A program made the position numbers and the translations under genes. Below are positions 14,497-17,807 of a stretch of 64,000 nucleotides of DNA, one piece after another. Positions within the stretch are counted from its first letter, which is position 1. Each line of letters opens with the position of its first letter. The notes below the pieces were generated by a model. That model was not told where the DNA came from. It did no database searches and saw only the letters and a program-made list of their open reading frames with translations. Location of the stretch: NCBI GenBank assembly GCA_019057865.1, contig JAHLWP010000012.1, forward strand, positions 28,544-92,543, read 5' to 3'. Origin of the DNA: Promethearchaeota archaeon. Its GTDB lineage: Archaea; Asgardarchaeota; Lokiarchaeia; Sigyniarchaeales; SOKP01.

Positions 14497-15115
14497 TGTC
14501 AAAAGCTGCAACTAAAAAAAGAGGAGGAAAGATGCATCAATTCATCATCGTGGATCCAAATTTATGTACGGGATGCGAAACTTGGACCAGGTCTCCTGGA
14601 AAGCACAAAACCTGTGAATCCGTATGTAGTTTTGTACATGATGGTGAATTCAATCCAATAAATACAAGAATTCATAGAGTTCGAATTGAACCTGTTTTTA
14701 ATATCGCTTTAGCGTGTCAGAAGTGTGAAGACTCACCCTGCGTGAGAGCGTGTCCTGAGAAAGCGCTAAGTCAAGACCCAGAAACGGGTTCAATTATGGT
14801 AGATGACGATAAATGTAATGGCTGCGCCTTCTGTATGAATTAAGAGAATTTCTCTCTAATATGCGGAAAAGGGCGTGCGATTTCGGAGTTCTGAGTCTAC
14901 ATATTGAATCTCAGAAAGCACTTATCTGTGATCTTTGTGAAAATATGAAGGAAGATTATATTGATGAAGAATCCGGAATTAAGGAACCCCAATGCATATT
15001 GGTTTGTCCTAAAGAGGCGATTTCTCTTAAAAATGTGGAACAGATTGGAGAAGAAACCCGTATTGAAGCCGTTAAAAGACTTTTTTCATCAATACTAGAA
15101 GAGTATGAAGGTTAA
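14496..15115 (+). CDS. Four-cluster 4Fe-4S electron-transfer subunit (DmsB/HycB/CooF-like), AOR partner; predicted join 14496-14579 + 14610-14836 + 14869-15115, 185 aa
   Basis: ORF track splits it into 14496..14843 and 14861..15115. Removing 30 + 32 nt gives a 558-nt open frame with CTGCETCESVC, CQKCEDSPCVRACP, CNGCAFCIRAC and CDLC...CILVCP. TAATG overlap with aor stop. Confidence 0.85.
14580..14609 (+). other. Putative 30-nt BHB-type mRNA intron 1 (in frame)
   Basis: Interrupts CxxCxxC. Central helix UGCG(14574-77)/CACA(14604-07) with one C.A mismatch, AAA bulges at 14578-80 and 14608-10, inner stems CUU/AAG and CCAGG/CCUGG. Confidence 0.65.
14837..14868 (+). other. Putative 32-nt BHB-type mRNA intron 2 (contains TAA, shifts frame)
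   Basis: Outer stem GCGCCUU(14824-30)/AGGGCGU(14870-76), central 4 bp CUGU(14831-34)/GCGG(14863-66), 3-nt bulges AUG(14835-37) and AAA(14867-69), inner hairpin; excision gives C-I-R-A-C. Confidence 0.72.
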
Positions 15116-15361: not shown

Positions 15362-17338
15362 TTGTCTGAAAAACAGACCAAGGATAATAATGAACCAGAA
15401 TTGCCAATTGTTGGCGTTTTCGTGTGTCGCTGAGGAATAAACATCGCTGGTATCTTAGATGTCCCTAGAATCGTGGAAGAACTTAATAGATTAGAAGGTG
15501 TAAAAGCTTTTGAATATCTTAGTATGTGTACTGAAGGAGGATCTTCTTATATAAAGGAACAACTTGAAGAAAGTAAAATTGAGAGAATTGTTGTAGCTGC
15601 TTGTACTCCTAGAACTCATCAACCAGTTTTTCACGCTATACTCGCTGAAGCTGGTTTACCTCCTAGATATTTGGAATTTGTTAATATAAGAGAACATTGT
15701 AGCTTCGTTCATCAAGCTCCAGAAGTACGTGAAAAAGCAATTCAGAAGGCAATTGAACTCACAAAAGCAGGAATAGCACGTGCTAGATTATTAGAAGATG
15801 TTCCAATAAAAGTAGTACCTGTTGAACCAGTGGCTCTAGTTGTAGGAGGAGGTATTGCTGGATTATCTGCTGCTGTTGATTTAGGGGATGCTGGATTTAA
15901 AGTTTACCTCGTTGAAAAGAATACTACAATTGGAGGTAGGATGAGCCAATTAGACCGAACATTCCCAACGGACGATTGTTCAATATGAATTCTCGGTCCT
16001 AAAATGTTAGAAGCAAATCGTCATCCAAACATTGAGATTCTATCATATAGTGAAGTCATTGAAGTTGATGGATATATTGGAAATTTCAAGGTTAAAGTTA
16101 AAAGAAAGTCACGGTTCGTAGATGAAATTAAATGTACTGGTTGTGGAGCATGTCCAGAAGTATGCCCTATTTATGTACCTAATTATTTTGATGAAAATCT
16201 TTCGGCGAGAAAATGCATTGATATCGCTTTTGCTCAAGCTGTTCCTGCAATTTTTGATATTGCAAGAGAATCTTGTGTAGAATGTTTTGCTTGTGTTGAT
16301 TCATGTGAAGAAGATGCTATTGATTTTAGTATTCAAGATAAAGAAATTGAACTTAAAGTTGGTACTATAATTGTTGCTACAGGGTGGGATCTCTATCAAG
16401 GACCAGATTATGGATATGGTACTTTCGATAATGTTGTAAATCAAATCGAGTTGGAGAGGATTCTTGCGCCTAATGGTCCTACTTATGGACATTTAAAACG
16501 ACCTTCTGATGGAAAACGTCCTACTAAAGTATTATTCATCAATTGTGTTGGATCGAGAGACATAAATAAAAATGCTCACTGCAGCGTTATTTGCTGTAAT
16601 TTATCTCTTAAAAACTCAAAACTCATCAAATTAGAATATCCTGATTCTCAAATAGTTTGTTGTTATATAGATATGAGATGTGCAGGAAAAGATTATGAAG
16701 AGTACTATAGACGTTCACGAGAAGCAGGAATTATCTTTCTAAAAGGATTAGTTGGTAAAATTGAAGAAGATCCATTAACTAAAAATCTAAAAGTACAGTT
16801 TGAACCTGTTGGCACAGATACAATTGTCGAGATGGAGTTTCATATGGTTGTATTATCACCAGCATCACTCCCATCTAAAGGTACTGTGGAGATAGCGAGA
16901 GTTTTAAATATGGAAAAAAGCCCAGATGGATTCCTAAAAGAATTTCATGCTCGACTTGATCCAATCAGTACAAAGGTTCCTGGAATATATATATGCGGTT
17001 CAGCTCAAGGACAAAAAGAGATTGATAAAGCAGTCAGCCAAGCAAAGGGTGCTGCTTCTACAGCAGGTATACCAATGGGCAAAAAAGAATACGTCATGGA
17101 GTTAATTCGGGCTACACCTTTAGATGAACGTTGTGCCAAATGTTACAAATGTATAGAGTCATGTCCATATAGTGCGATTTCAGTAAATGAGAAAGGAATT
17201 CTAGTAGTGAATATTATTCTATGCAGAGGATGTGGTACTTGTGAAGCCGTTTGTCCTTCTAAAGCAATTGAATTAACATACTTTAGAGATGATCAATATA
17301 TGGCATTAATTGATGAATTACTTCCTATTGCGGATTAA
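15362..17338 (+). CDS. hdrA: Heterodisulfide reductase subunit A-like flavoprotein, selenoprotein with 2 Sec (U24, U209), 658 aa
   Basis: TTG start after AGGTG SD. In-frame TGA at 15431-33 (GVFVCR-U-GINIAG) and 15986-88 (FPTDDCSI-U-ILGPKM), both at conserved Cys positions. GGGIAG FAD motif and ferredoxin motifs. Confidence 0.92.
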
Positions 17339-17351
17339 AGAGGTGGATAAT

Positions 17352-17807
17352 ATGGCAGAAAAAGAAGATATTAAAATTATAGCATTTTTATGTTGGAAAT
17401 GAGGATATGGATCAGCAGATATGGCAGGAACTATTCGAGCTCAATATCCATCATCTATTAGAACAGTTTTAGTTCCTTGTACGGGAAGAATTGGATCAGA
17501 TTTAGTGATGCGTGCGTTTGGAAGAGGTGCCGATGGCGTAATGATTATTGGATGATACCTTAAAGAATGTGATTATGAGACGGGAAACTATTTTGCATAT
17601 CGTCTAGTTGAATACTTAAAAGAAGTTTTAAAAGCTATAGGGATTAATGAAAAGCGGTTATATAACGGATATTGTACTGCGGCTGAAGGTCAAAAATTTC
17701 AAATCGAAGCAACAGATTTCGACAAAATAATACGTGATCTAGGTCCAAGTCCTTTACGTACTAAAGGCGGCGCACCAGAAAAAGCTAAAGCGAAAGCGAA
17801 AACTTAA
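17352..17807 (+). CDS. mvhD: Hydrogenase delta subunit MvhD/VhuD ([2Fe-2S]), selenoprotein with 2 Sec (U17, U68), 151 aa; missed by ORF track
   Basis: Manual translation MAEKEDIKIIAFLCWK-U-GYGSADMAG...VPCTGRI...GADGVMIIG-U-YLKECDYETGN...CTAAEG...LGPSPL; TGA at 17400-02 and 17553-55; GAGGTG SD. Confidence 0.92.

What the first reader, a model, noticed from the sequence alone, without database searches (positions are those of the whole stretch)
14567..14616. Intron 1: in-frame 30-nt insert, invisible to ORF callers, inside the first Cys motif
Predicted fold: UACGGG/CCUGUG outer stem, UGCG/CACA central helix (a synonymous UGU Cys codon would make it perfect), AAA/AAA bulges, CUU/AAG and CCAGG-UCU-CCUGG inner stems. 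Retention adds 10 aa between the 2nd and 3rd Cys and likely disrupts cluster binding. In both introns the central helix contains a Cys codon and the cut is 2-3 nt after it, hinting at a shared insertion-site preference or selection to control Fe-S ligand motifs (inference). This BHB is more relaxed than that of intron 2.
Basis: partly seen in the sequence, partly recalled or inferred. Interest (0 to 1): 0.75.

Follow-up and report, generated by a model that had tools for sequence, protein, structure and literature searches.

The report
Hidden in-frame mini-intron in Asgard mRNA
A 30-base insert in an iron-sulfur protein gene of a Loki-type (Asgard) archaeon looks like ten extra amino acids, but comparison with relatives shows it is almost certainly an intron cut out of the messenger RNA by the tRNA-splicing enzyme, a process published for only one archaeal coding sequence.

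Summary
The insert is real: 14580-14609, 30 nt, in frame and stop-free, between Cys2 and Cys3 of the first CxxCxxCxxxC motif of the Fe-S partner (WorS-like) of an aldehyde oxidoreductase in a Promethearchaeota archaeon. 93 of 135 family genomes have the uninterrupted motif. Seven distinct insert versions sit at the same nucleotide. Their peptides are not conserved, one (another genus) is 34 nt with stops, and their bulge-helix-bulge (BHB) fold is kept with compensatory changes. It is therefore an intron, not a peptide. The C·A mismatch is a derived change in the intron strand, not a TGT/TGC exon change: all other carriers pair 4/4. The same UGCG/CACA helix bounds a frameshifting intron elsewhere in this genome. 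The genome encodes a two-subunit EndA with the broad-specificity loop, plus RtcB. A motif-free census found 21 more BHB introns in 14 genes; only 1 has a Cys codon in its helix (0.55 expected), so Fe-S targeting is not supported. Splicing is inferred, not observed: no RNA reads were available. The scan has already noted such introns in this genome and in this gene in another genome.

The parts
14580..14609 (+). Intron 1, 30 nt, in frame (phase 0), stop-free; cut sites after 14579 and 14609
   Evidence: absent from 28 orthologous loci and 93 family genomes
14574..14580 (+). Exon strand of the central helix (UGCG, holds the Cys2 codon TGC) and 5' bulge AAA
   Evidence: TGCG in all 7 distinct carriers; TGC in only 9 of 28 intronless orthologs
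14604..14610 (+). Intron strand of the central helix (CACA; A14605 is the derived mismatch) and 3' bulge AAA
   Evidence: other carriers have CGTA, CGTG or CGCA, all 4/4
14581..14603 (+). Inner intron stems CUU/AAG and CCAGG-UCU-CCUGG
   Evidence: two-sided changes in 6 inner pairs
14567..14616 (+). Whole BHB, including the exon-exon outer stem 14567-72 / 14611-16
14837..14868 (+). Intron 2, 32 nt, frameshifting with an in-frame TAA, canonical 4/4 BHB, in Cys motif 3
   Evidence: diverged versions in G025, G016, G018, L054, L056, L180, L182
14496..15115 (+). Host gene: four-cluster 4Fe-4S subunit (WorS/AorA-like), 185 aa after splicing; start overlaps the aor stop
   Evidence: purifying selection in all three exons (62 synonymous vs 12 nonsynonymous codon changes against G012); no close paralog in the genome
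12550..14496 (+). Aldehyde ferredoxin oxidoreductase large subunit (AFOR_N, AFOR_C), presumed partner

Best explanation
14580-14609 is a tRNA-type (BHB) intron in an mRNA. The pre-mRNA folds so that exon UGCG pairs with intron CACA between two 3-nt bulges. The two-subunit splicing endonuclease EndA cuts after the second base of each bulge and RtcB joins the exons, restoring CxxCxxCxxxC. With intron 2 also removed, the 185-aa Fe-S subunit of the aldehyde oxidoreductase is made. The intron is one of at least two dozen ~30-nt mRNA introns in this genome. It most likely persists as a near-neutral passenger kept spliceable by selection on its fold, not as a device aimed at Fe-S motifs. The C·A mismatch is a recent, tolerated decay of a perfect helix. 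Shown: insert, boundaries, restored ORF, structure-not-peptide conservation, presence of the enzymes. Inferred: cleavage, ligation and their efficiency.
For: Seven distinct versions at the same nucleotide, pairwise only 9-19 of 30 nt identical between lineages, all BHB-shaped. A 34-nt version with stops in another genus (G081) in the orthologous aor-linked gene. 82% of cells paired, 6 pairs with two-sided changes, 0-1 of 500 shuffles as high, slid controls 27-56%. In close pairs exons change 53 synonymous: 10 nonsynonymous but the insert 1: 5 (Fisher p = 0.0014), while the insert stays 87-90% identical. TGC in all carriers vs 9 of 28 intronless. EndA alpha and beta paralogs and RtcB present; alpha aligns with Aeropyrum EndA across the loop with K44 and R46 that confers broad specificity (PMC3241643). 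The identical UGCG/CACA helix bounds a 29-nt frameshifting intron in an intact, purifying-selected gene on C37, whose relatives pair 4/4. Motif-free census: 16 of 26 inserts canonical BHB against 1.5 expected.
Against: This copy has only 3 of 4 central pairs, a bulged A next to the helix, an unremarkable folding z-score and predicted helix probability of only 0.23-0.42. Six of seven versions are 30 nt and stop-free, so retention would still be translatable. Carriers are related, so pair counts and codon tests overstate significance.
Confidence: 0.8

Rival explanations
1. Decaying intron: ancestrally spliced, but in this lineage the C·A mismatch makes splicing poor, and because the insert is in frame and stop-free a protein with a 10-residue loop between Cys2 and Cys3 is made and tolerated (intron turning into exon).
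For: Only this lineage has lost a central pair; fixed in two assemblies; energy -11.2 vs -16.6 kcal/mol for the 4/4 form; motif 4 of the same protein tolerates 18 residues at the same place.
Against: The same mismatch sits in a frameshifting intron that must be spliced; 5 of 21 census introns are 3/4 helices; outer and inner stems are intact; motif 1 spacing is invariant in 93 genomes.
Confidence: 0.11
2. Regulated switch: splicing efficiency at Cys motifs is tuned (Fe, W, Se, temperature) to control Fe-S subunit output, and introns are targeted to or selected at Fe-S ligand motifs.
For: Both introns of this gene, and one in another Fe-S gene (o906), have a Cys codon in the helix; the predicted BHB is marginal and temperature-sensitive.
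Against: Unbiased census: 1 of 21 vs 0.55 expected, P = 0.43; 1 of 59 Fe-S motif genes. Exon helices are simply G+C-rich (65% vs 29% genome), which TGC/TGT-G supplies. 93 family genomes do without intron 1, with no sign of cost.
Confidence: 0.05
3. Ordinary 10-residue protein insertion; the RNA fold is coincidence.
For: In frame, no stop; retained peptides share a basic end (KHK, KRK, RRK).
Against: Peptides otherwise unrelated; nonsynonymous excess; a 34-nt stop-containing version exists at the same base; the basic end is what the helix and bulge sequence dictates.
Confidence: 0.02
4. Ribosomal bypass from ACT (14580) to ACC (14610), or a pseudogene, or an assembly error.
For: Matched Thr codons flank the insert in this genome; a short AAAC repeat lies at both ends.
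Against: Matched codons and repeat are not kept in L054, L056, L180, L182 or G081; all three exons are under purifying selection; independent assembly agrees.
Confidence: 0.02

Closest known systems
cbf5 pre-mRNA BHB intron of Desulfurococcales/Sulfolobales (Watanabe 2002; Yokobori 2009, PMC2738675)
   Same: Short intron in a coding sequence, BHB boundary often relaxed, hetero-oligomeric EndA, patchy presence with secondary losses.
   Different: Asgard host, metabolic Fe-S gene, two introns per gene, at least 21 further introns in 14 other genes of the same genome, narrow 28-34 nt size; here in frame and stop-free, so invisible to annotation; splicing not yet shown.
HVO_1309 5'UTR BHB intron of Haloferax volcanii (PMC7714728)
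   Same: mRNA substrate of the splicing endonuclease.
   Different: Lies in the untranslated leader, not the coding sequence; euryarchaeal enzyme type.
Non-canonical tRNA introns of Asgard archaea (bioRxiv 10.64898/2026.10.13.758758)
   Same: Same motif and enzyme; two EndA paralogs typical; repeated gains; relaxed 3/4 class recognised.
   Different: That census covers tRNA genes only; the text has no occurrence of 'mRNA' or 'cbf5'.
WorS / AorA Fe-S small subunit of tungsten aldehyde oxidoreductases (PDB 9mqx_E, 6x6u_B, 8c0z_C; PMC12318220)
   Same: Best PDB matches of the intronless ortholog (E 4e-25 to 4e-21); four Cys motifs; gene next to the AFOR gene.
   Different: No intron reported for these genes in what I could search; motif 4 has a longer loop here.

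Membership tests
Archaeal BHB (EndA-spliced) intron | Two 3-nt bulges on opposite strands around a 4-nt central helix, relaxed form (3 of 4 pairs) allowed | tested here: met
   3/4 pairs in this genome, 4/4 in the six other versions; relaxed class as defined
Canonical (strict 4/4) BHB | All four central pairs | tested here: not met
   C14576·A14605 mismatch; filed as relaxed, not canonical
Archaeal BHB (EndA-spliced) intron | Flanking exon-exon and intron-intron helices | tested here: met
   6-bp outer stem after one bulged base; 3-bp plus 5-bp inner stems with two-sided changes
Archaeal BHB (EndA-spliced) intron | Cutting after the second base of each bulge restores the functional RNA | tested here: met
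   185-aa ORF collinear with intronless orthologs; also true for the 34-nt version. At this site alone the junction can slide -2 to +5 nt without changing the protein
Archaeal BHB (EndA-spliced) intron | Host encodes EndA able to cut relaxed motifs, and a ligase | tested here: met
   Two EndA paralogs, RtcB; loop with K44/R46 equivalents. Sequence evidence only
Archaeal BHB (EndA-spliced) intron | Cleavage and ligation shown in vivo or in vitro | not testable with these tools
cbf5 intron | Located in cbf5 of Crenarchaeota | tested here: not met
   host gene is a Fer4 dicluster protein in Promethearchaeota
Group I / group II intron or other Rfam RNA | Catalytic core, covariance-model match | tested here: not met
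   30 nt; no Rfam match near the site at E <= 1
Conserved peptide insertion | Purifying selection on the encoded residues; frame kept | tested here: not met

The most novel reading that the evidence does not exclude
Loki-type Asgard archaea run a genome-wide mRNA splicing system on the tRNA-splicing machinery, and in-frame stop-free introns with weakened motifs such as this one give two protein forms from one gene (retained and spliced), a simple archaeal form of alternative splicing or of intron-to-exon conversion caught in progress.
Probability: 0.12. Interest if true: 0.9.

Novelty: new variant of a known kind. Interest (0 to 1): 0.7.

Why it matters
Published mRNA substrates of archaeal EndA are the cbf5 intron and one 5'UTR intron (PMC7714728). 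Here the closest prokaryotic relatives of eukaryotes appear to carry dozens of short introns in coding sequences, several per gene, gained and lost among close relatives. That bears on how intron-tolerant gene expression looked before the spliceosome, and it is directly testable in cultured Lokiarchaeia. This intron also shows a practical blind spot: in-frame, stop-free introns are translated into the public protein records as spurious insertions in catalytic motifs (P0004, P0015, the latter from the Loki's Castle assembly GCA_000987305.1), so Asgard annotations and metabolic inferences need re-checking.

Tried and rejected
Folding z-scores were uninformative. Rfam gave nothing at the site. 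Cys-codon preference tested and not supported. 'TGT would be ancestral' tested and rejected. Selection for an open frame in the insert: chance of a stop-free 30-mer is 0.62-0.83 per version, so the open frames are unremarkable. Single origin with vertical descent only: carriers are rejected as one clade (p-AU 2e-52). Bypass, pseudogene and assembly error rejected (see rivals). The last 0.54 Mb of G006 could not be fetched, so the census covers 2.8 Mb of one comparator and misses introns shared by both genomes. Six literature searches found no report of coding-sequence BHB introns in Asgard archaea (the library lacks most subscription journals). No structure or complex prediction was run: it could not decide cluster loading.

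Full report
Observation. The described fold is present: outer stem 14567-72/14611-16, central helix UGCG/CACA with a C14576·A14605 mismatch, two AAA bulges, inner stems CUU/AAG and CCAGG/CCUGG. Cutting after the second base of each bulge removes 14580-14609 (30 nt) and turns CTGCE-TWTRSPGKHK-TCESVC into CTGCETCESVC. Removing a second insert (14837-14868, 32 nt, with a stop) as well gives one 185-aa ORF. On its own the fold is weak evidence: z = -0.76; the BHB is the predicted minimum only at 10-20 C, with helix probability 0.23-0.42. Placed elsewhere in the gene the insert makes an equal or better motif at 16 of 633 positions.

Host gene and organism. The gene starts in the stop codon of an aldehyde ferredoxin oxidoreductase gene. 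The intronless ortholog matches Fer4 dicluster families and, best in the PDB, the small Fe-S subunits of tungsten aldehyde oxidoreductases, which carry four [4Fe-4S] clusters and pack against the catalytic subunit (PMC12318220). Named homologs are Promethearchaeota/Lokiarchaeota. The genome has no close second copy (next best 40% identity), and all three exons are under purifying selection against G012 (3:0, 36:7, 23:5 synonymous:nonsynonymous codons), so it is not a pseudogene.

Relatives. 28 orthologous loci lack the insert exactly, and 93 of 135 family genomes match the uninterrupted motif against 3 with an insert. Carriers found: this genome, a near-identical independent assembly (L055), G025, G081 (another genus), metagenome contigs L054 and L056, and L180-L182. 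That gives seven distinct versions at the same nucleotide. Six are 30 nt; G081's is 34 nt, frameshifting, with stops, in the orthologous aor-linked gene. Retained peptides differ (TWTRSPGKHK, TLFGFPKKRK, SYFGTPVKRK, IFNLFDRRRK). On the six 30-nt versions 82% of cells pair and 6 pairs show two-sided changes, above 499-500 of 500 shuffles and all slid controls (sequences are related, so this is not a probability, and L180/L182 use a shifted inner hairpin). In the two close pairs, exons change 53 synonymous to 10 nonsynonymous codons, the insert 1 to 5 (p = 0.0014), yet the insert stays 26-27 of 30 nt identical. Selection acts on the RNA fold, not on the peptide.

The mismatch. All carriers have TGC at 14574-76, against 9 of 28 intronless orthologs. 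The six other versions have CGUA, CGUG or CGCA on the intron side and pair 4/4. The change costs about 5 kcal/mol in the model. Tolerance is likely: the same UGCG/CACA helix bounds a 29-nt frameshifting intron at C37:37968, in a gene that is full length only when spliced (483 vs 387 aa; 165:79 synonymous:nonsynonymous), and relatives have 4/4 versions there.

Machinery. The genome has two EndA paralogs and RtcB, the two-subunit pattern common in Asgard genomes. The C71 protein is closest to crenarchaeal catalytic subunits and aligns across the Crenarchaea-specific loop, with Lys and Arg at the places of Aeropyrum K44 and R46; that loop confers broad substrate range (PMC3241643). Activity is inferred.

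Genome-wide test. I compared this genome with 2.8 Mb of congener G006 without using the motif. Among 1,736 comparable genes, 26 clean inserts of 24-70 nt appeared: 16 canonical BHB (1.5 expected when moved), 5 relaxed with flanks (2.2 expected). The 21 fall in 14 genes; 20 are 28-34 nt; 10 are multiples of three, but only 2 are also stop-free, so most must be removed. This is a lower bound, as shared introns are invisible. One of 21 has a Cys codon in the helix (0.55 expected, P = 0.43), and 1 of 59 CxxCxxCxxxC genes has an intron. Exon helices are 65% G+C in a 29% G+C genome, which explains why Cys-Glu or Ala-Ala codons serve. The present gene is outside this census, so the test is independent of the finding; with 21 cases a modest Cys excess cannot be excluded.

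History. On an exon tree the carriers lie in four separate places, each near intronless relatives, and are rejected as one clade (p-AU 2e-52; L180-L182 not included, long branches present). Either the intron is old and was lost precisely many times, or it arrived repeatedly at one favourable site. The shared 3' end and length favour common ancestry, but I cannot separate the two.

Mechanism and rivals. Best reading (0.8): EndA cuts both bulges, RtcB ligates, and the intron persists as a spliceable passenger. Main rival (0.11): a decaying intron whose in-frame retention is tolerated; motif 4 of this protein has 18 residues between Cys2 and Cys3, so disruption by retention is plausible but not certain. 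Regulation aimed at Fe-S motifs (0.05), a plain peptide insertion (0.02) and bypass, pseudogene or artefact (0.02) fare worse. No RNA evidence was obtained.

Known systems and novelty. It works like the cbf5 pre-mRNA intron (PMC2738675) and meets every testable feature of a relaxed BHB intron, but is not the cbf5 intron and not a strict 4/4 BHB in this genome. The papers I could search list only cbf5 and a Haloferax 5'UTR intron as mRNA substrates; a 2026 preprint on Asgard introns treats tRNA only. Earlier notes of this scan report the same class in this genome and this gene in another genome; my census independently recovered several of those genes. Verdict: new variant of a known kind, interest 0.7.

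Noticed in passing
window 14837-14868; L002, L026, L005, L054, L180: Intron 2 is 32 nt in every carrier but falls into different sequence types; in G025 and G018 the BHB puts the cut one base further 3' than in this genome (independent gain or sliding). It occurs without intron 1 in G016 and G018; G081 has intron 1 without intron 2.
   Followed up: partly
L003:1570-1600 (G012): The closest intronless relative keeps the carrier-type codons ACG GGA TGC GAA, suggesting recent loss; its Thr codon is ACT, as a DNA deletion between the short terminal repeats would leave, not ACC as a spliced cDNA would. A plain synonymous change explains it equally.
   Followed up: no
G000:C37:37968-37996 (+): 29-nt frameshifting intron with the same UGCG/CACA helix in a VWA/CoxE-like gene (name from sequence recognition); seven genomes of genus g28 have 30- or 33-nt versions at this site.
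   Followed up: partly
G000 contigs C82, C49, C7, C27, C23, C63, C3, C13, C24, C75, C56, C4: Further BHB introns in genes that I recognise by sequence (not HMM-tested) as EF-2, acetyl-CoA synthetase (4-5), leuS (4), thiolase (2-3), rps12, FwdA, acyl-CoA dehydrogenases, an epimerase, a GTPase, Roadblock.
   Followed up: partly
G000:C27 (o2104 ortholog): A clean 65-nt insert in an RNA polymerase A'-like gene with only a weak BHB score; a longer or non-BHB class is possible.
   Followed up: no
G006: G006 has its own 28-33 nt BHB-like inserts absent from this genome (at least five), so the introns turn over in both directions within the genus.
   Followed up: no
window 15431-15433, 15986-15988, 17400-17402: In-frame TGA codons at Cys positions of hdrA (two) and mvhD, most likely selenocysteine (known for Lokiarchaeota, own knowledge); they split hdrA into several ORFs.
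   Followed up: no
L183-L185 (P0015): A carrier of both introns is in the Loki's Castle metagenome assembly GCA_000987305.1, annotated as a truncated 108-aa hypothetical protein with the intron translated.
   Followed up: partly
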